This document shows positions 1,496 through 36,520 of a DNA stretch of 38,225 nucleotides, piece by piece (the first letter of the stretch is position 1; every line of letters starts with the position of its first letter). A program made the translations under genes and the position numbers. The stretch is from a virus (Duplodnaviria > Caudoviricetes), in IMG/VR virus record IMGVR_UViG_3300005326_000035, positions 1-38,225 of that record; one strand, given 5' to 3'. The notes under the pieces are model-generated. The model had not been told where the DNA came from. It made no database searches and saw only the letters and a program-made list of their open reading frames with translations.

Positions 1496-1561
1496 CAATA
1501 ATAATAATATTATCGCCTACTTATTGGCTTTTGGAATGGATGCAATTTATTTTTAAAGCTA
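1496..1561 (-). promoter_or_regulatory. Putative late promoter for the portal gene
   Basis: TAGCTTTAAAAATAAATTG (1543-1561), 39-nt spacer, then -7-like TATTATTG (1496-1503); same layout at 23445-23510 and 37114-37179. Confidence 0.6.
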
Positions 1562-2953
1562 CTTTTCGCCCATATCATTAACAACACCTAATCGCCTAAG
1601 ATGCGTAACTGCTCCATAAAGAGTTGCGTCAATCAAGTGGTCGTCTCCGTCTTGTGGTTCATTAATCAGAATCTTCTCGTCTCCCTTTTTCTTTAACCAC
1701 TTGTAATCATCTACCTCATCGGCTAAATTTATGCTGCTTTCCGTATAAAACACATTGAAGTATTTTAAAAATTCTATCCGGCCTACCTTGTCCGTGTTTA
1801 CGGCTCCCATTGATGAAATCCCGTAAGCACTTCTAAGTTCGGCTATATGTTCTGGTCTCGACGGGTCGCAATATACTTCTGTTAGTATATCTCTAACAGT
1901 ATTAATTTGACGGGTATATAGTGAAGCATTAATATCTATATCTAATTTTTCATAAGTCATTAAATCGGCTATTTTGCCATTATAATGGATTTGCTTATTT
2001 TCGATATAAATTTCATTCTCCGCGTCTTGATAAATAAATGTCCGCTTGTTTCGGAAATCACTTTTAATCTTTTGAGAGATAGTATTGTTTTGTAACTCCT
2101 TTTGATAGCATATTTCGTGCAAATAAAGAGCGTTTATCTTATTGTCATAGCAAATTCTTACTATTGCAGTAGGGTCATTCGAAAATCCCCAGTCCAAACC
2201 ATACCAACAAGGTAAATTCGTAGGGTAATCAGAATCTTTTATACTTCTCCAATTCTTAAAGATAACCCCTTCGGCTTGTTTTGCCCAATGGCCTAAGAAA
2301 ATGTTATCGTATCTATCCGGGTCTTTCTTTGCTTTCTCCGCCAACTCTAAAAATGTAGCATCTAAATTCTGTATGTTGTCTAAATAGGTCGTATGGATAT
2401 AAGTGCAATCACCAACAACCCTATTACAAACATCGAAAACGCCCCTTTCCTTAAAGAATTTCCGGTAAATCATATGTTTTATTGAAGGCGGATTTAAGAC
2501 TAAAATAACCTCGTTAGCTTCGCCTTTCTTTCTTACTGAAAGGTCGATTTTATCAAACATATCTTCATCGGTCATTTCTTCGGCCTCGTCGAGTACCCAA
2601 GTGGTAATGTTATTTATGGATTTAAGGTTTGCAGTCTGTTTGCCGGAAGATGCCTTTAGCCCCCTGAAAAGAATTGTAGAACCCGTTTGAATATTAACAA
2701 TAGAATTTGCCGTGCGGGTAAACTGTTCCTCTAATCCCATTAACTCTACCTTTTCCCAAAACTCAGGTATAATGGAAATCTCTGCGGAAGTCATTGTAAA
2801 GCGGGTAAATAGAATAGTCTTACCCTCTTGAAAGGTTCGCATCAATAGAGCAACGGACAAAGCAAAGGATTTTCCACTACCTCGGCCACCGGTTACAACT
2901 GCATAACGCGTTTTTAATTGAAATAAAGGCTGGTATTGTTCAATCAGATCCAT
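1559..2953 (-). CDS. terL: Terminase large subunit (PBSX/XtmB family)
   Basis: Walker A GGRGSGKS, Walker B WVLDEAEE, LNP motif, nuclease GLDWGFSNDP and DDHLIDA. Confidence 0.95.
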   Translation of the reverse strand: MDLIEQYQPLFQLKTRYAVVTGGRGSGKSFALSVALLMRTFQEGKTILFTRFTMTSAEISIIPEFWEKVELMGLEEQFTRTANSIVNIQTGSTILFRGLKASSGKQTANLKSINNITTWVLDEAEEMTDEDMFDKIDLSVRKKGEANEVILVLNPPSIKHMIYRKFFKERGVFDVCNRVVGDCTYIHTTYLDNIQNLDATFLELAEKAKKDPDRYDNIFLGHWAKQAEGVIFKNWRSIKDSDYPTNLPCWYGLDWGFSNDPTAIVRICYDNKINALYLHEICYQKELQNNTISQKIKSDFRNKRTFIYQDAENEIYIENKQIHYNGKIADLMTYEKLDIDINASLYTRQINTVRDILTEVYCDPSRPEHIAELRSAYGISSMGAVNTDKVGRIEFLKYFNVFYTESSINLADEVDDYKWLKKKGDEKILINEPQDGDDHLIDATLYGAVTHLRRLGVVNDMGEK

Positions 2954-3443: not shown

Positions 3444-4424
3444 TTAATTTTTATTCTTTTCCCACTTCCAAGCCGTTTCTAAAATCTCGGTTAGTGGTGT
3501 TTCTGCTTTCCAGTCCAATTCTTTATTTGCCTTACTTGAATCGGCGTAAATCTCTTTTATATCCCCTGCCCTTCGTGGGGCAATTTCATAAGGCACTTTT
3601 ATTCCCGTTGCTTCCTCGAATGAATTGACCATTTCCAAAACAGATACCCCTTTGCCGGTTCCTAAATTATATACCTCAAATATAGGCTTTTTAATTAACT
3701 TCTCCAACGCTTTTATGTGGGCTTTGGCTAAATCGACTACATAGATATAATCCCTTATACAAGTTCCGTCCGGGGTGTTGTAATCGTTTCCGTAGATTTT
3801 TAGCTTGTCTCTCTTTCCTGCGGCTACCTCGGTTAAATAAGGAAGTAGGTTTTGAGGCTCTCCGTTTGGATCCTCCCCAATCAATCCCGAAGGGTGCGCC
3901 CCAATAGGATTAAAGTACCTCAAACAAATTGCGTTCCCTCTGTCTTTTAAAATCTGCTCGCACATTACTTTAGTCTGTCCGTAAGGAGACATCGGCTTAA
4001 TCTCGGCATCTTCGGTAATTGGCAGAGTATCGGGATTGCCATAAATCGTACAAGAAGAAGAAAAAATAACCGGCACATTCGGGAAGTAATTTAGCACATT
4101 CAATAAAGAATCTAAGTTGTTTTTGTAGTATTTTAATGGCTTTTCGATACTCTCGGAAACAGACTTATACCCTGCAAAGTGAATAATTGCGTCAAACTTA
4201 AAAGCCTTTGAAATTGCGGCCATTTGTGATTGATTTGCACAATCTAAATAATACATCTTTACAGGCTCTTGAATAATATAATTAATAGAATCAAATACAT
4301 CATCTTTGGAGTTTGAGAAGTTATCCCCACAAACCACATCGTAGCCCGATTGGATTAACTCAACTATTGTATGCGAGCCAATATATCCCGCACCGCCTGT
4401 TACTAAAATTTTCATAAATTTCAT
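3444..4424 (-). CDS. galE: UDP-glucose 4-epimerase
   Basis: ILVTGGAGYIGSHT, FSSSCTIYG, YGQTK (YxxxK), LRYFNPIGAHPSG, DGTCIRDYI; start may be 4415. Confidence 0.95.
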   Translation of the reverse strand: MKFMKILVTGGAGYIGSHTIVELIQSGYDVVCGDNFSNSKDDVFDSINYIIQEPVKMYYLDCANQSQMAAISKAFKFDAIIHFAGYKSVSESIEKPLKYYKNNLDSLLNVLNYFPNVPVIFSSSCTIYGNPDTLPITEDAEIKPMSPYGQTKVMCEQILKDRGNAICLRYFNPIGAHPSGLIGEDPNGEPQNLLPYLTEVAAGKRDKLKIYGNDYNTPDGTCIRDYIYVVDLAKAHIKALEKLIKKPIFEVYNLGTGKGVSVLEMVNSFEEATGIKVPYEIAPRRAGDIKEIYADSSKANKELDWKAETPLTEILETAWKWEKNKN

Positions 4425-4426
4425 CT

Positions 4427-4651
4427 TTAATCGTTTCCCTCAACCTGCCCCGCATCATCATTCTCATATTTGACAATATCGGACATAGGAGGATTGACCT
4501 TGCCCATTTGTTCGGGGTGTTGCCGAAAATAATTAACAACCTCTTCCCAATCGTTCCGGTCAGTAATTATGTGTGCGGAATCTATGTTCAAAGACCGCTC
4601 CATTTGCGGGTGTCTGTGCAGGTAATTAAGCCCAATTATTTTCATATCCAT
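4427..4651 (-). CDS. Hypothetical protein
   Basis: Tightly packed in the operon; A-rich start context identical over 15 bp to that of the RecE-like gene. Confidence 0.65.
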   Translation of the reverse strand: MDMKIIGLNYLHRHPQMERSLNIDSAHIITDRNDWEEVVNYFRQHPEQMGKVNPPMSDIVKYENDDAGQVEGND

Positions 4652-4663
4652 AATATAGTTTTT

Positions 4664-5248
4664 TTATAAATAAAATCTTGTAACCCCCTCATTAACTCCC
4701 TCCTGATAGAAGTAAAACCCCTTTTTAGGCACTAAGAAGTTGTACTTGTCCGAAGCCTTAGCCAAGTGGACATCATTGAATTCTCCCTTGCTTATGGCCT
4801 TTGTGTAGGCTTCCCAAATGATATTAGCTCCGTTGGCATCGGGTATGAGAATTGCGTGTGCGGAAAGCATATACAAAACTCTCAAATAATCATCGTCAAA
4901 TAGCCCTAATCCCATAGGCGGCAATTGTGGATCCCAATATCTCGAACCACCTAAATAAATCAAATCCGCTTCGGCCGGAATAGGAATCTCCTTTGGGAAA
5001 TCCTGCATCGGCAAACAATCGTCCTCAAAAAGAATGTACGGATAGTGCTTTTTCGTATCGGCCATTTCAATAGCCATAAGGTGTGCTCTTGACATTCGGT
5101 TGCATTTATTCGGGTCGGTGTCTATAAAAGGGTTAATCCTATAAGTAGAAGCCAAGCCCAAACCATTTACCACCTCTTCGATTTTCTCCCGCCTTAAAAC
5201 ATAATGGTCGGGATTTATGTAATAGCCGTATATTTGCTTTGTTTTCAT
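4664..5248 (-). CDS. Glycosyltransferase family 25-like protein
   Basis: YYINP...RRE N-terminus, AHLMAIE, ILFEDDC, DLIYLG and LSAHA match the GT25 pattern; start taken at MKTKQ. Confidence 0.7.
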   Translation of the reverse strand: MKTKQIYGYYINPDHYVLRREKIEEVVNGLGLASTYRINPFIDTDPNKCNRMSRAHLMAIEMADTKKHYPYILFEDDCLPMQDFPKEIPIPAEADLIYLGGSRYWDPQLPPMGLGLFDDDYLRVLYMLSAHAILIPDANGANIIWEAYTKAISKGEFNDVHLAKASDKYNFLVPKKGFYFYQEGVNEGVTRFYL

Positions 5249-5259
5249 ACTACTTAATT

Positions 5260-6150
5260 TTATTCGCATAATCCGTGAAACATACTCATACAAGCATACC
5301 CTCCCGCTGGTTCGTACATATCCAAAGTTGCTGATTTACTTCTTACATAATTAACAACCTCTTGCACATAGGGATATGATTTATTAAAAATAAATCTTTT
5401 GGGTATGTAGGTTGGAGGGAAAAATGTACTTCCCTGTTCTCCCTCTCCCCCCAATGACTGCTCGGCATTAATTAATCGCTCTAACATTTTAGGTTCGTTA
5501 TTTGCAATATTTAATATCTCGCCCTGTCTGCACATTATGCAAGGAAAACAACCAACTCTTGAAAATCCCTTGTAATAAAGAGGATTAGGCACTTGGTTTG
5601 CATTCAATATGCAATCTATTACATTTTGTGCAGTCCATTCTTTAATTGGTCTTGATATTGTCGCATCATACTTTTTACACCACTCAATTATGTCCTTTTT
5701 TCTGTAAGAATAATACTTATCTCTTCCGTTTTTATCCTTTCCTAAACTCTGGAAATATCCCTTAAAATACATACATTCGGCCTCCATATTTGCCCTTGCT
5801 GTACTTTCTCCGCTTCTAATACCTTGTATAATTATTAAACTCTCCTTCTGCTCAAGTACCCAATCAATCATTGGTTTTACTTTTAGTTCTTCGGTACAAA
5901 ATCTTGCTTTTGTGCTTGGAAATCGCTTTTTGTGCTTAGCCAACCCGACAAAATCATATTGCCCCTTTATAGTTGTAAACTTAACCCCAGTTTTGGCTAT
6001 AACATAGTCGATATGCTTATATGTGTCGGGGTGTTCCCAACCCGTATCACAAAAGACCGCTTCTATCTTGTCAATGCCATATCTATTTATCGCTTCAACT
6101 AAACACGCTTGGCTGTCTTTCCCCCCACTAAATTGCACTACTACTTTCAT
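5260..6150 (-). CDS. Phosphoadenosine phosphosulfate reductase family protein
   Basis: FSGGKDS PP-loop, FCDTGWE, FCTEELK, GIRSGES..RA, RVGCFPC. Confidence 0.88.
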   Translation of the reverse strand: MKVVVQFSGGKDSQACLVEAINRYGIDKIEAVFCDTGWEHPDTYKHIDYVIAKTGVKFTTIKGQYDFVGLAKHKKRFPSTKARFCTEELKVKPMIDWVLEQKESLIIIQGIRSGESTARANMEAECMYFKGYFQSLGKDKNGRDKYYSYRKKDIIEWCKKYDATISRPIKEWTAQNVIDCILNANQVPNPLYYKGFSRVGCFPCIMCRQGEILNIANNEPKMLERLINAEQSLGGEGEQGSTFFPPTYIPKRFIFNKSYPYVQEVVNYVRSKSATLDMYEPAGGYACMSMFHGLCE

Positions 6151-6896
6151 ACCTCAATTACTTTTCCGTTCACAATATTAACATTTTTTTCTTTCAAAAG
6201 CAACAAATCTTTTTTAAGACCCTCTATATTTAAACTCATATCCCGCGTTTCCCCGATACCGCCTTTGTCCGATACCTCAAAAACGAAGTCTTTGCACTCA
6301 ATTGTTATTGGCCTTATGTAGTGAAAATGGCAGTTCAAAAAACTTTCGTCATTCCAGACGGGTTCGTAACCTATCTGTCTATCAGCATCTTGCCATTCTT
6401 TTAACTTTTTGCACAGCCACATAAATAAGTCTTTTTTACCGGAAAAAAACGCCCCATAGTAATAAGTCTGTGGGAGCTTCGTATCCTTAGGCACATACGC
6501 GCACGAATTAGGGTTTCTATCAAAGGGCTTTTCCTCTTTCATATAGGTTTGGTCTGCATAGTGTTGCCCCCCTACCAAATCGCCTATAAACCAATCTCCA
6601 AAGTCTTTGCTTACATTAGTGTCCGCATCAAAATACGCCAAATAATCACAATCCGTATCTTTCAGCGACAAAATAGAAGTGAATTTTGAGTTTGTGCCAT
6701 CTACCCAATTTGTATTTCTCAACTCCTTCCAAACGAAATTAAAGCCTTCGGGCAAATAGGGCTTAGGGTCGCAATCCGTAAATAGATAAAAAACTATCTC
6801 GGCAGTACCTCGATAAAATTGAGTGAATCTTTTGGCAAAGCGGATTCCGAGCGGAAAATATCCGTTTGTGCATAAGACTATTATTCCGATTTTCAT
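6147..6896 (-). CDS. Family 6 glycosyltransferase (ABO/alpha-1,3-Gal(NAc) transferase-like)
   Basis: KIGIIVLCTNGY, FYLFTD, YFDAD (DxD), YYYGAFFSG, WNDESFLN (cf. WHDESHLN). Confidence 0.88.
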   Translation of the reverse strand: MKIGIIVLCTNGYFPLGIRFAKRFTQFYRGTAEIVFYLFTDCDPKPYLPEGFNFVWKELRNTNWVDGTNSKFTSILSLKDTDCDYLAYFDADTNVSKDFGDWFIGDLVGGQHYADQTYMKEEKPFDRNPNSCAYVPKDTKLPQTYYYGAFFSGKKDLFMWLCKKLKEWQDADRQIGYEPVWNDESFLNCHFHYIRPITIECKDFVFEVSDKGGIGETRDMSLNIEGLKKDLLLLKEKNVNIVNGKVIEV

Positions 6897-6897
6897 A

Positions 6898-7167
6898 TTA
6901 TTTAATTGCTATTTTTAATATGGCACTGTTTATATTTAATTGCGATTTATCATATTGAATATTTTCTAAATAGGAGAATAAATTACTTTCCCAATTCTCC
7001 TTTGGTTTCTCTAAAAACCAATAGTCAGCATCAAATAAAAGGCATCTAATTTCACTCGCTTTAAATCCACTTGAGTGAACAGAAGTAAAAACTAAATCAT
7101 ATATTTCTAAATATTGGGTTTCTGTTAATCCAAAAATCATTTTTACGCCATCTTTTTCTGTAATCAT
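6898..7167 (-). CDS. Hypothetical protein
   Basis: 89-aa ORF with 1-nt gaps to both neighbours; AT-rich. Confidence 0.65.
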   Translation of the reverse strand: MITEKDGVKMIFGLTETQYLEIYDLVFTSVHSSGFKASEIRCLLFDADYWFLEKPKENWESNLFSYLENIQYDKSQLNINSAILKIAIK

Positions 7168-7168
7168 A

Positions 7169-7564
7169 TTAGTATTTTTTGCCGTGTTTATACTCCCTGC
7201 TTTGATTATATTGCAATTTTAGTTCAATATGTTTTTCAATGTCAATATTTAATCCACCGCACAAATCAAAGAGGCGAATAAATGTATCTGCAATTTCATC
7301 TTCAAAAGTATCCTTAAAACAACACTCAAAAGATTGCTTAAAATTTTCTTTTGTTTCAAATCGTTCTTGGTCTTGGTTCTTCCAAATCATTGCATCAAAA
7401 CCATTATAGTTGGCTTGCTTGTCCTTTCGATGTGCTTCTAATGCTTCTGAAAGTTCAGATACTACAAGCATCAAGGTTTGTCCAACATTTTCTTTTGAAA
7501 CATCAAATCCACGAAGCTTATTGCCCTCGTAAATTTGTTTTGATAATTTATTTAGATTATTCAT
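7169..7564 (-). CDS. MazG-like nucleotide pyrophosphohydrolase
   Basis: LVVSELSEALEAHR...EDEIADTFIRLFDL...KLQYNQSR (ExxE...ExxD). Confidence 0.85.
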   Translation of the reverse strand: MNNLNKLSKQIYEGNKLRGFDVSKENVGQTLMLVVSELSEALEAHRKDKQANYNGFDAMIWKNQDQERFETKENFKQSFECCFKDTFEDEIADTFIRLFDLCGGLNIDIEKHIELKLQYNQSREYKHGKKY

Positions 7565-7566
7565 AG

Positions 7567-8517
7567 TTATTTAATTTTACTAATTTTCCCAACCTTTTTA
7601 ACCCATTTATAATATTCGGCACTCGCGCCCTCTTTTAGTTTTAAATCGGTGTCGTAAGGTGTTTTATCTTGATAATCCGCTTTAAAAAACAAGCCTTGCT
7701 CGTTGTCCGTAACCCCTGCGTTATGGAAAATATTACACCTCTCAAAGTCGCTTATTTCGTCTTTCTTGCAGACCTTAGCACTTGCCCAGCTGAAATCAAA
7801 AGCAGGGTCAGAAATGGTCTTAAATCCCAATCTCCAAGCGTTCCAAAGTACAGCGAACATATCCGCACACCAAATTTGTAACTCGTGATAAGTCGGGTCT
7901 TTAGCCTTTAGTTGAGCGTTCAAATTATTCACTCTTACAAATAAATCCTCACTGTCCTTTTCAACCCTTGCCCAATACTCAGAAGTTACGTTTTTCATCA
8001 GATATTGTGCCCCGATAGTGCCCGAATTATTTAACTCGATAACCTTTTCGGGCAGTTCCATAACCTCGCACATCAAATCCATAACCTTTTGCCCTTTGCT
8101 CAAAATGTACTCTCGATTTAAATAATGCCCCACCTCGGAGCCGTACCAATTATCATCGTTTATCATTTCCTGCGTGATCCAATCAATCGGCTTCGTGAAA
8201 ATAATGTCGCAATCGTGGTAAAAAATAGCATCTTGAGAGAGTTCCGGGAATTTGGCAAAATGTTGTTTTAAGATATTCGGTCTTATTGACGAAACATAGT
8301 TTGGCAGCTCCCTCGTGTCGTTATAAAAGTGAAAAGTAACCGGATAACTCATAAGCCCTTTCCAACAATTAGGAATGATGCCCCCTACTTTATTGCAGAC
8401 AATATCGATTTGAGAGGGTTTTATGCCCATTTCAAGGAAGTTATTTATTAATACCTCTACTTGCCACGCATAATACAAACTTGCGGGTTGGCAGCAGATA
8501 AATCGGAGTTGTTTCAT
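7567..8517 (-). CDS. GT-A fold glycosyltransferase resembling plant HPAT/SRGT1 protein O-glycosyltransferases
   Basis: YYAWQVEVL, IRPNIL, FYHDCDIIFTKP (DxD), GAQYL, WCADMFA, IFHNAG; order and spacing resemble GT95/GT96 motifs as I recall them. Confidence 0.65.
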   Translation of the reverse strand: MKQLRFICCQPASLYYAWQVEVLINNFLEMGIKPSQIDIVCNKVGGIIPNCWKGLMSYPVTFHFYNDTRELPNYVSSIRPNILKQHFAKFPELSQDAIFYHDCDIIFTKPIDWITQEMINDDNWYGSEVGHYLNREYILSKGQKVMDLMCEVMELPEKVIELNNSGTIGAQYLMKNVTSEYWARVEKDSEDLFVRVNNLNAQLKAKDPTYHELQIWCADMFAVLWNAWRLGFKTISDPAFDFSWASAKVCKKDEISDFERCNIFHNAGVTDNEQGLFFKADYQDKTPYDTDLKLKEGASAEYYKWVKKVGKISKIK

Positions 8518-9195
8518 TTAAAATACAGTTAATTGATTAGCATATTCCTTAAACCTCTTGACACTCGCATAAAAATAGTCTGGGTCTAATTCACACCCTA
8601 CAAAGGGCAAATTAGCCTTGTCTGCCGCTATTCGGGAACTACCACTGCCTAAATGAGTATCTAAAATCTTGTCGTTTGGCTTGGCGTAGTTTTTAAAAAT
8701 CCATTCGTAAAGAGCAATGGGCTTTTGGGTAGGGTGCAATCGTTTATATTCGTCTTTTGCATTATTACCAACCCAACTTTTAAAATATTTCCTTAAGGGC
8801 TTGTTGAATGAAGTCCAAGCGAGTTCCCCGTCAGCATAATCATTTTCTCCCGTACCTTTATCCCAAAATACCCAAGCCCCAGTTGGAGACAAGTGTTCCG
8901 TCATATAATTACCTCCCCATATAATTTGATTGGCACAGCTAAATCTTAATTGTTCGAAATATTTTTTGTCGGGTATTTTATTATCCCAATCTTCTTTGCC
9001 TCGATTAACCTTATTCTTGCCGTTTCCAAGTGTCATTTTATTCGCACCTATCCCGTAAGGCGGGTCAACTACTGCTAACTCAAAATATTTATCGGGAACT
9101 TGTTTTAATAAGTCCATACAATCCATAAGATACACAACAGAAGTAACTCCGTGCTTATTCGTGTATTCGTGCTTGTCTTTGTAACCCAAAATCAT
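8518..9195 (-). CDS. DNA methyltransferase (N6A/N4C, beta class)
   Basis: VDPPYG, HPTQKP, ILDTHLGSGSS, GCELD; start taken at the ATGA overlap at 9195. Confidence 0.92.
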   Translation of the reverse strand: MILGYKDKHEYTNKHGVTSVVYLMDCMDLLKQVPDKYFELAVVDPPYGIGANKMTLGNGKNKVNRGKEDWDNKIPDKKYFEQLRFSCANQIIWGGNYMTEHLSPTGAWVFWDKGTGENDYADGELAWTSFNKPLRKYFKSWVGNNAKDEYKRLHPTQKPIALYEWIFKNYAKPNDKILDTHLGSGSSRIAADKANLPFVGCELDPDYFYASVKRFKEYANQLTVF

Positions 9196-9413
9196 AGTAT
9201 CATTATCGTTAAATTCAAAGTCCTGCAAACCCTTTCGGCCGCACCCCAATTGCAGCCCTTTCCTGCCTCAATCCTATGGATAGTTACTTCGCTTACCTTT
9301 GACAATCGGGCAAGTCTGTAAACTGACATTTTGCCTCTTCGCTGACTTATTAAAGTGCCAAGTTTTATGCACCCTTCTTTTTCGGCCAAATCAAGCTCTT
9401 CGTAACTTACCAT
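9192..9413 (-). CDS. XRE-family helix-turn-helix regulator
   Basis: MSVYRLARLSKVSEVTIHRIEAG HTH pattern. Confidence 0.8.
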   Translation of the reverse strand: MVSYEELDLAEKEGCIKLGTLISQRRGKMSVYRLARLSKVSEVTIHRIEAGKGCNWGAAERVCRTLNLTIMIL

Positions 9414-32657: not shown

Positions 32658-33080
32658 TTACGCTCCTGTTGTGGTTGTGGTTGTTCTTCCTAATACGCCT
32701 GAACCTTTGAAAGTAATATCCTTAGTTACTACGGCGTCTTTGTCCGAGTTTTCGTCTACATTGGTTACATAAGCAGTACCGACTTTTCCAAGAGCCACGC
32801 CTCCGATGATAGTTCCGTAGAATACATTTACAATAGTTCCTGCTACCAAAGCGTCCCAAAGAAGCTCTTGCTGACCATTGGCTGTATCGTTGCTTACAAA
32901 AGAAGCCGAACAACTCCAATTCTTATTACCCATTATGATTTCGTCCCAAGCAGAATCTTTGCTCGAAATATCAATCTCAACCCCGTTTGTGGTCATTGAA
33001 CTTGAAAGTTCGCCACCTATTGCAGTATGGGCTCCTGCCACACTTACATACAATTTTTTGTTGTTTCCTGATGTTGCCAT
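32658..33080 (-). CDS. Major tail tube protein with C-terminal poly-Thr
   Basis: IDISSKDS.W, KNWS.S, ITFKGSG (TP901-1-like tube pattern); ends RTTTTTTGA. Confidence 0.85.
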   Translation of the reverse strand: MATSGNNKKLYVSVAGAHTAIGGELSSSMTTNGVEIDISSKDSAWDEIIMGNKNWSCSASFVSNDTANGQQELLWDALVAGTIVNVFYGTIIGGVALGKVGTAYVTNVDENSDKDAVVTKDITFKGSGVLGRTTTTTTGA

Positions 33081-33603: not shown

Positions 33604-34133
33604 ATTACTTTCTTTATTGCGTCCCCAATTACTTTCATCATATCGGCCTCATTTTTCCTAAATGCAGGGAATAAAAACGGCCTTGCTTTTGTTCCCTTTT
33701 TTGCTATACTCTTGGCTATTGCCCAAGCCAAAGATGTTGCTGCTTTGTAAAAATCTGCTCCTCTCTTTCGTCTTCCTCCTGCTGCCGTTGTGGTGTCGGA
33801 TAAACCTTTTTTCTTTATCCATTCCAAAATTGGTTTAATCGGTGGCATTCCCCCTGCCTTTCTGCCGAACTCCACCCAATAAGCGTGATTTGCTTCGGCT
33901 GCCACATCAATAGAAAGGTCTTTTTGTGGTCTTATAAATATGGAGTTAATCAATTGGCCTGTCGAAATACTCTTAGCTTCTTTTAGCCCCTTTTGTGCGT
34001 CTGCTTTGACCTCCATCGCAACTTTGTTCAGTCCCTCTTGTGCCATTTGGTTTATCTCTTTCGCCTTGCCCTTAAACATCTTGTTCATTCGGGTAAGTTC
34101 CGAGTTTGGGAGTTCTAAATGAGTGCCTTTCAT
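33600..34133 (-). CDS. HK97 gp10-like morphogenesis protein
   Basis: TGQLINSI, AYWVEFG, GTKARPFLFPA. Confidence 0.88.
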   Translation of the reverse strand: MKGTHLELPNSELTRMNKMFKGKAKEINQMAQEGLNKVAMEVKADAQKGLKEAKSISTGQLINSIFIRPQKDLSIDVAAEANHAYWVEFGRKAGGMPPIKPILEWIKKKGLSDTTTAAGGRRKRGADFYKAATSLAWAIAKSIAKKGTKARPFLFPAFRKNEADMMKVIGDAIKKVI

Positions 34134-34504
34134 TATCCCGCAGTAGTTGTTGTTGTAGTAGTCAAAACCTTAAATGAGCCTTCAATAACTAAGAATTTCC
34201 CCCTGTCTCTTTCGTCATAACCCTTAACTTCGTCGCTCGGAAGCACGGAACGGGGTAAAATCTCATAGCCTAACCAAATGATTTTAGCTATTTCGGTAGT
34301 GCCTGGGGTTCGTATTTCCACTTGAACCGGATTAGTAACGCCAACCTCTTGATAATACATAGCCCGCGAACCCGTGAGAACCTTAACAGCAGCCGGAACC
34401 ACTCCCAAAGAGACAAAGGAAGTAACAGGCATAGAGTATGAGTCTAATACCTGCACCGCCTTAAATAGCTCTACTGTGTGTTTATAGTCTCTCCCTCGTA
34501 TCAT
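34133..34504 (-). CDS. Head closure / head-tail adaptor with C-terminal poly-Thr
   Basis: Synteny and gp16-like N-terminus; ends LTTTTTTTAG. Confidence 0.7.
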   Translation of the reverse strand: MIRGRDYKHTVELFKAVQVLDSYSMPVTSFVSLGVVPAAVKVLTGSRAMYYQEVGVTNPVQVEIRTPGTTEIAKIIWLGYEILPRSVLPSDEVKGYDERDRGKFLVIEGSFKVLTTTTTTTAG

Positions 34505-35152: not shown

Positions 35153-36520
35153 CTAACCAGCAGTAGTTGTAGTGGTAGTAGTTGTAGTAGTAATTCCGTA
35201 AGTTACAACAGGGTTTGCAATAGTGTTAGTGATTAACACATTTGAAACGGCTGCACCGGCTGAAATAGCTGCAATAGAAGTTGTAGTGTTGGCTACAAAT
35301 ATGTTTGCGAGTTTATCAGTTGTCGGAACAACTACCTGACCTTTCCAACGCATATGGAGAGTATAACCATCGGTTCCGGCGTTTCTTTCAAGTTCTGTTT
35401 CAAGAGCTGCTTTTTGATGCAGTTGTAAAACCTTTCTTGTTACCATAAGCATTTCGGTTGCCCCAATAGTGGCATCTTCCAAAATAGTAACCCCATGAAC
35501 CAAAAGTGAACCGTCGGCCAAAACATTGATGTAGTTCGCCCCCTTGTCTTTCAGCAGACGAATCTTTGAAACCTCGGAAGGATACAGATAAACTGCATCA
35601 GGGATATAGTTACCCTTGCCCTGAATCATTACCTGAGTTCTTGCAGCAAGGATAAGGTCTGTAATGTTAGCATCCTGAACAGATAATGCCATTCCGGCAG
35701 TAGTAGCATTAAACGCTGTCGAACCCTGTGTTTTCAGACCGTAAATTTTCTTTGTGTATGCTCCACCATCAGCACCAGCACCAGAATAGATAAGAGAGTT
35801 TACCTTTGATAGGATAGCCTCAATTCCTTTGCCTCTTGCCCAATTAACGAAATATGACATTTCGGTTGTAGTCTCGCTTGAGAATTTAAGCATAGAACCT
35901 ATTTTTGCAAGCTCTCTGTATTTCTCTTCGATTGTTGCGCCGTCTCCGGTTGTTACGGCAGTCAGTTCCTCAACATAGTCTGCATTATCAAAATACACAC
36001 CGTCAAACCACATAGCACGGTTCTTGTCGGCCGGAACAGTAACCACCTGCATATTTGTAATGAATTTATTAGGCTCATACAAAGCCCCTGAAATTCCACC
36101 TCCGTAGGTTCTGCTTACCGGATTAGTTGCCCCGGAAGTAATTACGCTTGTTGGGTCGTCTTTTACCTCGATTAAAAATGTTTGTGATTTGGCTCTCTTG
36201 CCACTCATTACTTCTTCAAGTTGAGTTTTAAATTCGGCTCCCTCATACACCGCTTTCAGTGCGTCTACAAATGTCTCCTGCTTTTCCATTTTTGTTTCTG
36301 CCATTTTTTTGTTCAAATCGTTAATCCCCTCATTCAACTTCACAACATCTTCCTGCATTTTTTTGATTTCGCCCTCTGTTGTCTCGCCCTTTGTTTGCGC
36401 CTCGCCCAACTTTTTAGTTGCTTCGGCCAAATCCTCAGTTGCCTTTTTGTATTCCGCTCTCATAGTATCGAGTTCGGCCTTCATTTCGGCTGCTTTTTCC
36501 TCAATTGTTTTCTCTGCCAT
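35153..36520 (-). CDS. Major capsid protein (HK97 fold, N-terminal coiled-coil delta domain) with C-terminal poly-Thr
   Basis: Follows the prohead protease; coiled-coil N-terminus; IYSGAGA, LKDKGANY; ends ITTTTTTTTTTAG. Confidence 0.88.
   Translation of the reverse strand: MAEKTIEEKAAEMKAELDTMRAEYKKATEDLAEATKKLGEAQTKGETTEGEIKKMQEDVVKLNEGINDLNKKMAETKMEKQETFVDALKAVYEGAEFKTQLEEVMSGKRAKSQTFLIEVKDDPTSVITSGATNPVSRTYGGGISGALYEPNKFITNMQVVTVPADKNRAMWFDGVYFDNADYVEELTAVTTGDGATIEEKYRELAKIGSMLKFSSETTTEMSYFVNWARGKGIEAILSKVNSLIYSGAGADGGAYTKKIYGLKTQGSTAFNATTAGMALSVQDANITDLILAARTQVMIQGKGNYIPDAVYLYPSEVSKIRLLKDKGANYINVLADGSLLVHGVTILEDATIGATEMLMVTRKVLQLHQKAALETELERNAGTDGYTLHMRWKGQVVVPTTDKLANIFVANTTTSIAAISAGAAVSNVLITNTIANPVVTYGITTTTTTTTTTAG

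What the first reader, a model, noticed from the sequence alone, without database searches (positions are those of the whole stretch)
3444..8517. Candidate virion O-glycosylation system: three glycosyltransferases plus GalE, matched to poly-Thr tails on structural proteins
Seen: about 5 kb just upstream of TerS encodes three unrelated GTs (7567-8517, GT6 6147-6896, GT25-like 4664-5248) and GalE. In the same genome, capsid, head-closure and tail-tube proteins all end in T6-10 plus AG/GA. Established: some mycobacteriophages glycosylate capsid and tail-tube C-termini with their own GTs; GalE supplies UDP-Gal/GalNAc; GT25 enzymes are typically beta-galactosyltransferases; GT6 adds terminal alpha-1,3-Gal/GalNAc. 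Inference: a priming GT modifies the Thr tails, the GT25-like enzyme extends and GT6 caps, coating the virion in a mucin-like brush, possibly with an alpha-Gal/blood-group-B-like terminus. I know of no such system described in a Bacteroidota phage.
Basis: partly seen in the sequence, partly recalled or inferred. Interest (0 to 1): 0.92.

Follow-up and report, generated by a model that had tools for sequence, protein, structure and literature searches.

The report
Phage sugar-coating cassette with poly-threonine tags
This 38-kb phage ends its capsid, head-closure and tail-tube proteins in runs of threonine and carries three predicted sugar-transferring enzymes, one of which travels with such runs across many unrelated phages, so it likely builds a short sugar chain on its own particle, which nobody has yet measured for this enzyme family.

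Summary
Capsid, head-closure and tail-tube proteins end in T10AG, T7AG and T6GA, with mixed codons. The GT6 and GalE calls hold. The two unannotated genes fold as GT-A enzymes: 4664-5248 is GT25-like, and 7567-8517 ('GT1', PHROG 4417) is HPAT/SGT1-like only as a lead.

GT1 is the core. Poly-Thr proteins occur in 71 of 80 GT1 loci, against 0 of 106 control loci, and in 8 of 8 cultured GT1 phages examined. Sister phages with 98%-identical capsids lack both tail and enzyme. GT6 and GT25-like follow GT1 in the same order in unrelated phages, and GT1-GT6 fusions exist, so one pathway is likely.

Corrections: GalE is not conserved, four unrelated genes are interleaved, and no fucosyltransferase was found, so blood-group B is unsupported. 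Alpha-Gal is plausible but untested. Some tailed phages carry GT2 instead, or no detected GT. No glycan has been measured.

This scan noted the GT1/poly-Thr link before (46 notes matched, at least 44 genomes); no note matched the GT6/GT25/GalE extension. I found neither in the papers searched.

The parts
7567..8517 (-). GT1: 316-aa soluble GT-A glycosyltransferase (PHROG 4417, unannotated; HPAT/SGT1-like as a lead); predicted priming enzyme for the Thr tails
   Evidence: AF2 pLDDT 94.9. VIA Z 15.1 Skp1 alpha-GalT, 14.9 glycogenin, 14.4 LgtC. D102/D104 and H265 invariant in 27 of 27 diverse homologs. Co-occurrence with poly-Thr.
6147..6896 (-). GT6-family enzyme with DxD at 90-92 and catalytic Glu184; predicted alpha-1,3-galactosyltransferase, candidate capping enzyme
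   Evidence: PF03414 E 4e-13. Alignment to BoGT6a. Follows GT1 in L057, L079, L029, L031, L050. Fused to GT1 homologs in P0205, P0219, P0211.
4664..5248 (-). GT25-like enzyme (194 aa from ATG 5248; PHROG 24091); candidate extending enzyme, likely a beta-galactosyltransferase
   Evidence: Fold: ColGalT1 Z 13.1, rmsd 3.0. hhalign 96.1%, E 3.2e-9 to a Pfam GT25 protein. Follows GT6 in L057, L079 and P-SSM2.
3444..4424 (-). GalE UDP-glucose 4-epimerase; optional supplier of UDP-Gal, not conserved in the cassette
   Evidence: Replaced by a methyltransferase-like gene in L209 and absent at this position in L210.
35162..35191 (-). Thr10 tail (then Ala-Gly-stop) of the major capsid protein 35153-36520; predicted acceptor
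   Evidence: Thr-rich tails in 41 of 54 full-length homologs; 3 truncated ones left out.
34142..34162 (-). Thr7 tail (then Ala-Gly-stop) of the head-closure protein 34133-34504; predicted acceptor
   Evidence: PF05521.
32667..32684 (-). Thr6 tail (then Gly-Ala-stop) of the tail-tube protein 32658-33080; predicted acceptor
   Evidence: PF06199.
5260..6150 (-). PAPS-reductase-like gene interleaved in the block; probably not part of the system
   Evidence: PF01507. Absent between GT6 and GT25-like in L057 and L079.
6898..7564 (-). MazG-like pyrophosphatase (7169-7564) and an 89-aa ORF interleaved between GT1 and GT6; probably not part of the system
   Evidence: 0 of 80 loci of MazG-like homologs have GT1 or poly-Thr.

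Best explanation
The phage likely O-glycosylates its own virion: the GT-A enzyme at 7567-8517 is predicted to attach a first sugar to the poly-threonine tails of the capsid, head-closure and tail-tube proteins, and the GT25-like and GT6 enzymes would then extend it into a short, probably galactose-rich chain. Shown: the tails, the folds, the conserved active-site residues and the joint inheritance of enzyme and tails. Inferred: that the reaction happens in the cytoplasm on subunits or assembled particles (the enzymes have no membrane segment); the order primer, then beta-Gal by the GT25-like enzyme, then alpha-1,3-Gal by GT6 (from what those families are known to do); that GalE tops up UDP-Gal; and that the result is a dense glycan brush on the particle surface. 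What the brush protects against is not known. Odds: GT1 modifies the Thr tails, about 0.8; all three enzymes build one glycan, about 0.55; the chain ends in Gal-alpha-1,3-Gal, about 0.25.
For: (1) Poly-Thr ORFs in 71 of 80 viral GT1 loci; the gene directly upstream carries them in 63 of 74 loci with enough flank; 29 of 30 clusters at 80% GT1 identity have a positive locus. Controls: 0 of 26 TerL loci and 0 of 80 MazG loci. (2) All 8 cultured GT1 phages fetched, of 77 records matched, have poly-Thr on structural or adjacent proteins. GT1 sits directly after the tailed major tail gene in phiFL1A, 1706 and phiCTP1. (3) Natural experiment: iLp84 has GT1 and tails on capsid, decoration-like and tail proteins. 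CL1 and iLp1308 (capsid 98.5% identical) have no tails, no Thr6 run on the forward (structural-gene) strand and no GT1 in the whole record. (4) Tail-less capsid/terminase relatives of this phage: GT1 in 0 of 25 records, 14 of them at least 90% complete. (5) Three GT1-less tailed phages carry GT2 genes within a few kb of the tailed genes. (6) GT1-GT6-GT25-like adjacent and in the window's order in two phages with other gene surroundings, L057 and L079. Three GT1 homologs are fused to a GT6 42-44% identical to the window's, and one to a GT25-like domain. (7) GT-A folds with DxD/His metal ligands. (8) Precedent: glycans at the capsid and tail-tube C-termini of mycobacteriophages (passages in PMC12619734 and PMC11256854).
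Against: No glycan, activity or expression was measured. GT1's best structural matches are GT8/GT24-like enzymes at about 10% identity, which do not fix donor or acceptor. The HPAT link is weak: 1 of 104 members at E 0.017, feature-level similarity only, and no hit in a direct PF23452 search, which rang nowhere including the controls. One 98%-complete record (G046) has GT1 but no Thr6 run. Of 14 records with an in-frame T6AG-stop tail, 2 have GT1, 3 have GT2, 1 is cut inside the cassette, and 8 show no GT. Those 8 include an 85-kb record (82% complete) and a 15.9-kb record rated complete, although only 101 of 143 candidate proteins, drawn from 7 of these 14 records, were scanned. GT6 occurs in only 5 of 80 GT1 loci (3 near-identical) and GT25-like in 4 of 80; none was found in the 8 cultured-phage loci. 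The GT6/GT25-like pair also exists without GT1 in cyanophage P-SSM2. No tailed close relative's contig reaches far enough to show GT1.
Confidence: 0.78

Rival explanations
1. GT1 primes the Thr tails, but GT6, the GT25-like enzyme and GalE work on another acceptor (host LPS/capsule, a free oligosaccharide) and merely sit in the same cargo region.
For: The GT6/GT25-like/epimerase trio occurs in P-SSM2's large sugar-gene cluster without GT1. Most GT1 loci lack them. Unrelated genes are interleaved here.
Against: Direct adjacency to GT1 in L057 and L079, right after poly-Thr genes. GT1-GT6 and GT25-GT1 fusions. No membrane segment. No integrase found among the 57 window ORFs scanned with Pfam, making lysogenic conversion less likely.
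Confidence: 0.25
2. The enzymes hypermodify phage DNA against restriction, and the Thr tails are unrelated linkers.
For: Phage GTs often glycosylate DNA (passage in PMC12619734). A DNA methyltransferase and a PAPS-reductase-like gene lie in or beside the block.
Against: No TET/JBP or hydroxymethylase among the ORFs scanned. In cultured phages GT1 sits inside the head/tail operon and is gained or lost together with the tails. The tails are terminal and link to nothing.
Confidence: 0.05
3. The tails act unmodified (hydration, spacing, adhesion) or are glycosylated by host enzymes, and the GT link reflects shared inheritance of a structural-gene block.
For: 8 of 14 tailed records show no GT. Relatives place other things at the same C-terminus, such as Gly-Ser runs and Fn3 domains.
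Against: The link holds across unrelated head and tail genes, different hosts and different positions, including this genome, where GT1 lies about 9 kb from the capsid gene across the circular join. The Bacteroidota general O-glycosylation system needs an Asp before the Ser/Thr and works outside the cytoplasm (recalled); these tails are preceded by Ile, Leu and Arg.
Confidence: 0.12

Closest known systems
Mycobacteriophage virion glycosylation (Che8-type; Freeman et al. 2023, Cell Host Microbe 31:1216; not readable here, seen only through passages in PMC12619734, PMC11256854 and PMC10877033)
   Same: Phage-encoded cluster of three GTs (Che8 gp108-110); glycans reported at capsid and tail-tube C-termini; soluble enzymes.
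   Different: Che8 capsid and tail tube end in Gly-Ser with no poly-Thr. Che8 has no GT1 homolog; gp110 has only a weak hit (E 0.01) to the GT25-like profile. Other host phylum. Here there are 6-10 potential sites per subunit and a GT6.
Plant/algal peptide O-glycosyltransferases GT95 (HPAT) and GT96 (SGT1/SERGT, peptidyl-serine alpha-galactosyltransferase)
   Same: Primers that put a first sugar on hydroxy amino acids in low-complexity repeats (passage in PMC8012813). Language-model neighbours of GT1 include clusters with PF23452 in 10% and 58% of members.
   Different: GT1 does not reach the PF23452 cut-off. It is soluble, not a Golgi type II protein; the predicted acceptor is poly-Thr; the donor is unknown.
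GT6 alpha-1,3-Gal/GalNAc transferases (BoGT6a, human GTA/GTB, alpha3GT, P-SSM2 GT6)
   Same: Pfam member above cut-off; catalytic Glu and DxD present.
   Different: Has DxD where BoGT6a has Asn-x-Asn. Has Tyr147/Ala149 where BoGT6a and P-SSM2 GT6 have Ala/Gly. No GT11 partner found in this genome.
Sugar-gene cluster of cyanophage P-SSM2 (genes 257-271)
   Same: GT6, GT25-like and epimerase in the same order.
   Different: About 26% identity; no GT1 in that genome; much larger cluster; its acceptor was not tested here.

Membership tests
Mycobacteriophage-type virion glycosylation | Phage-encoded glycosyltransferases | tested here: met
Mycobacteriophage-type virion glycosylation | Glycan covalently attached to capsid/tail-tube C-termini | not testable with these tools
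   Needs mass spectrometry of virions
Mycobacteriophage-type virion glycosylation | Priming enzyme and acceptor tag homologous to Che8's | tested here: not met
   No GT1 match in Che8 with two positive controls ringing; no mycobacteriophage among 77 matched records; Che8 proteins end Gly-Ser
GT-A fold glycosyltransferase (7567-8517) | GT-A fold with conserved DxD and C-terminal His | tested here: met
   Z 15.1, rmsd 3.4, 220 aligned; D102, D104, H265 invariant
GT95/GT96 (HPAT/SGT1) | Match to PF23452 above cut-off | tested here: not met
   (1 of 104 members, E 0.017); rang nowhere, so it adds little
GT95/GT96 (HPAT/SGT1) | Remote homology by structure | tested here: inconclusive
   Feature scores 0.96-0.97 to HPAT-bearing clusters; no HPAT/SGT1 chain among the listed structural matches
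GT95/GT96 (HPAT/SGT1) | Transfers a sugar to a peptide hydroxyl | not testable with these tools
   Needs an enzyme assay
GT6 | PF03414 above cut-off, catalytic Glu, donor-binding motif | tested here: met
   49.3 bits against a cut-off of 25; Glu184 and DxD 90-92
GT6 | alpha-1,3 transfer to a beta-Gal acceptor; Gal versus GalNAc donor | not testable with these tools
   Bulky/Ala pattern at the donor-discriminating positions suggests Gal, by a rule recalled from GTA/GTB
GT25 | PF01755 above cut-off | tested here: not met
   No hit for the window's protein; 1 of 16 homologs at E 0.053
GT25 | Remote homology and fold | tested here: met
   hhalign 96.1% to a PF01755 member; ColGalT1 Z 13.1. Hence 'GT25-like'.
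Blood-group-B glycan pathway | alpha-1,2-fucosyltransferase (GT11) to make the H acceptor (recalled) | tested here: not met
   No PF01531 hit among the 57 window ORFs scanned; a host enzyme cannot be excluded

The most novel reading that the evidence does not exclude
Tailed phages across several bacterial phyla use a genetically encoded poly-Thr 'glyco-tag' and a modular toolbox of enzymes to build varied mucin-like coats. This phage's version assembles a Gal-alpha-1,3-Gal-terminated glycan on hundreds of capsid subunits, a bacterial virus displaying an alpha-Gal-type epitope made wholly by its own cytoplasmic three-enzyme pathway.
Probability: 0.22. Interest if true: 0.93.

Novelty: new variant of a known kind. 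Interest (0 to 1): 0.8.

Why it matters
Virion glycosylation in tailed phages has, in the papers I could see, been shown only for mycobacteriophages. This points to a second, non-homologous route that is widespread: 981 clusters at 50% identity match the GT1 profile. It is present in long-studied dairy and gut phages whose gene is still annotated 'hypothetical', so it can be tested at once with strains in hand. It gives a likely function to PHROG 4417 and to poly-Thr tails. It bears on how phage particles meet antibodies, mucus, proteases and host sensors. It also offers a compact, soluble, cytoplasmic O-glycosylation pathway with a short peptide tag, of use in glycoengineering. This genome matters because it carries candidate primer, extender, capper and sugar supply together.

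Tried and rejected
GT1 against Pfam and PDB by sequence gave nothing significant. The direct PF23452 search rang nowhere.

Single-sequence scans of viral contigs with GT6 found no confirmed locus. With GT25-like they found one. The partner counts therefore come from the GT1 loci only.

Searches for tailed close relatives with long contigs returned mostly short fragments or tail-less gut phages. L207 is the window's own sequence and was left out of all counts. L285 was not held. Three of the 17 records from the T6AG DNA pattern (L114, L121, L124) had no in-frame Thr run and were dropped before counting 14.

The ORF after the Thr-tailed gene in L118 looked like a candidate GT by position, but it has no Pfam or GT1-profile hit and reads like a head-morphogenesis protein; rejected.

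The count of 34 of 80 GT1 loci with a further GT is soft, because one probe was a GT-methyltransferase fusion. GalE's Glc versus GlcNAc preference could not be read from Ile at the gatekeeper position. DNA slippage as the origin of the tails was rejected. No complex prediction was run.

Literature searches found no paper linking poly-Thr tails or this family to phage glycosylation. Freeman 2023 and its supplements could not be read and may list related phages.
Full report
The window is a complete 38-kb tailed phage: a 123-base terminal overlap, listed with direct terminal repeats and 100% complete. Nearly all genes are on the minus strand. The host is probably a Bacteroidota bacterium. That is inferred from capsid relatives on contigs of two Bacteroidales-type genomes (the placement of one is recalled), from Shine-Dalgarno-like words before only 10 of 46 starts with A at -3 in 28 of 46, and from a Chryseobacterium phage as the closest cultured GT1 match. 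It is not shown.

Observation. Reading towards TerS, the block holds GT1 (7567-8517), a MazG-like gene, an 89-aa ORF, GT6 (6147-6896), a PAPS-reductase-like gene, the GT25-like gene (4664-5248), a 74-aa ORF and GalE (3444-4424). Capsid, head-closure and tail-tube proteins end in T10AG, T7AG and T6GA. No other of 57 ORFs has five Thr in a row, the codons are mixed, and chance expectation is about 2e-5.

The enzymes. GT1 matches only PHROG 4417, of unknown function. Its model (pLDDT 94.9) is a GT-A fold closest to Skp1 alpha-galactosyltransferase, glycogenin, LgtC and UGGT (Z 15.1-13.4). D102-x-D104 and H265 are invariant across 27 homologs, including those from cultured Bacillota phages. Language-model neighbours carry the plant HPAT family in 10% and 58% of members, but GT1 does not pass that family's cut-off, so HPAT/SGT1-like is a lead. 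The 194-aa protein folds like ColGalT1 (Z 13.1) and aligns to a Pfam GT25 protein at 96% probability. GT6 is a clear member, with DxD and the catalytic Glu. Tyr147 and Ala149 stand where BoGT6a and the P-SSM2 enzyme have Ala and Gly; by the rule recalled from blood-group enzymes this favours UDP-Gal over UDP-GalNAc. None of the three has a strongly hydrophobic segment.

Do tails and enzyme travel together? Of 306 viral stretches encoding a GT1 relative, the best 80 were fetched. Seventy-one contain a poly-Thr ORF; five of the nine negatives are cut within 400 bases upstream, and one of those has Thr runs at the other end of its circular record. The gene directly upstream is the poly-Thr gene in 63 of 74 loci with enough flank, and 29 of 30 clusters at 80% identity are positive. 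Controls fetched with other genes of this window gave 0 of 26 (TerL) and 0 of 80 (MazG-like). The TerL loci fall into few clusters, and neither control is centred on tail genes, so they bound the background only roughly.

Seventy-seven cultured-phage records match GT1; the 60 listed call it hypothetical, unknown or 'prophage pi2 protein 34', or have no annotation. All eight fetched carry poly-Thr on capsid, major tail or neighbouring proteins. The cleanest contrast is iLp84 against CL1 and iLp1308: capsids 98.5% identical, but only iLp84 has the tails and the gene. In this phage's own capsid family 41 of 54 full-length homologs have Thr-rich tails, some as (A/V)PTTT repeats. Tail-less relatives lack GT1 in 25 of 25 records, 14 of them at least 90% complete, though many belong to two gut-phage clusters.

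The reverse direction is looser. A DNA pattern for Thr6-Ala-Gly-stop gave 17 records, 14 in frame. Two have GT1, one is a close relative cut inside the GT25-like gene, and three have GT2 genes near the tailed genes. Eight show no GT, mostly fragments but including an 85-kb record; 101 of 143 candidate proteins were scanned. One near-complete record has GT1 and no Thr6 run (G046). So poly-Thr looks like a tag served by at least two unrelated enzyme families, with exceptions unexplained.

Is it one pathway? GT1, GT6 and GT25-like stand adjacent, in the window's order, directly after poly-Thr genes in L057 and L079, phages whose flanking genes do not match this phage's head and tail genes (48-50%, 50-53% and 34% identity for the three enzymes). 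GT1-GT6 recurs in three near-identical loci and GT1-GT25 in two. Among 83 long GT1 homologs scanned, of 150 listed, fused domains include GT7-like (10), GT2 (7), GT6 (3), GT25 (2) and GT29 (1). The fused GT6 domains are 42-44% identical to the window's. Other GT1 loci have GT2, GT4, GT11 or GT32-type genes and methyltransferases downstream. This reads as a constant primer with interchangeable extenders. GalE is one of the optional parts: the closest relative has a methyltransferase-like gene in its place, and another has nothing there. The GT6/GT25-like/epimerase order also occurs in cyanophage P-SSM2 without GT1, which shows the pair is an old unit but also that it can serve another acceptor.

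Mechanism. Most likely GT1 adds a first sugar to the Thr hydroxyls, the GT25-like enzyme adds beta-Gal, and GT6 adds alpha-1,3-Gal, with GalE supplying UDP-Gal. Each catalytic step is inferred. That relatives carry Fn3 domains or Gly-Ser runs at the same capsid position suggests the C-terminus faces outward. A blood-group-B structure needs fucose, and no GT11 was found. DNA modification and serotype conversion fit poorly: no oxygenase/hydroxymethylase, integrase or membrane GT was found among the ORFs scanned.

Comparison. It works like mycobacteriophage virion glycosylation, which I saw only in passages of citing papers (PMC12619734, PMC11256854, PMC10877033); the original and its supplements were not held. 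It is not a member by homology: Che8 lacks GT1 and its proteins end in Gly-Ser. PMC8012813 (passages) gave the GT95/GT96 relation. PMC6821194 (passages) says nothing on phage poly-Thr tails in the passages seen. Searches (listings only) found no description of this tag or family. The scan's own notes record the GT1/poly-Thr pairing on other genomes (46 notes matched, 8 shown) but none matched the GT6/GT25/GalE words. My scores rest on the tests above.

Verdict: a real, likely virion O-glycosylation system; a new variant of a known kind; interest 0.8.

Noticed in passing
L232, L240, L244, L245, L247, L250 (capsid relatives): Capsids end in Gly-Ser repeats instead of Thr runs; others (P0175, L239, L243) end in an Fn3 domain. 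No GT1 or GT2 was found in two complete Gly-Ser-tailed records (G034, G035). Possibly another tag or a plain flexible tail.
   Followed up: partly
L108:14226-16060, L115:13712-14923, L125:13826-14992: GT2-family genes near Thr-tailed capsid genes in phages without GT1; in L108 they lie between a terminase-like gene and the portal. A candidate second, non-homologous priming enzyme.
   Followed up: partly
P0215 (residues about 320 onward): A GT1 homolog fused to a GT29 sialyltransferase-like domain (E 1e-20); could give sialylated coats if it is viral. Context unknown.
   Followed up: no
P0239: A protein with Thr/Ser runs at residues 78 and 190 joined to a partial GT1 domain (294-475): a real tag-enzyme fusion or an assembly artefact.
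   Followed up: no
L118, L122, L116, L110, L107: A group of larger phages (baseplate J in G010) with two or three small proteins ending in (TTTTTTAAP)n-like tails and no GT detected; unexplained.
   Followed up: partly
L362:8490-8700 and L363:7974-8210: A short, almost pure Thr/Pro/Val reading frame directly after a capsid or tail gene (unannotated in VPE25), in another frame: a possible frameshift-added mucin-like extension.
   Followed up: no
L003:11550-12928 and related loci: Two unannotated gene families follow GT1 in 40 and 23 of 80 loci, with no Pfam hit; possible further glycan-pathway parts.
   Followed up: no
L209:1324-3537 versus window 1559-2953: A relative with a 90%-identical portal has a different terminase pair (about 30% identity, 737 aa, likely with an insertion): packaging-module exchange.
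   Followed up: no
P0004 and P0007: Two close GT1 homologs, each on a 67,523-base contig, the same length as that of GT25-like homolog P0182; may be one contig with duplicated GT1 (inferred from length only).
   Followed up: no
window 5260-6150 and 8518-9249: PAPS-reductase-like gene and DNA methyltransferase in and beside the block; possible separate DNA-modification functions.
   Followed up: no
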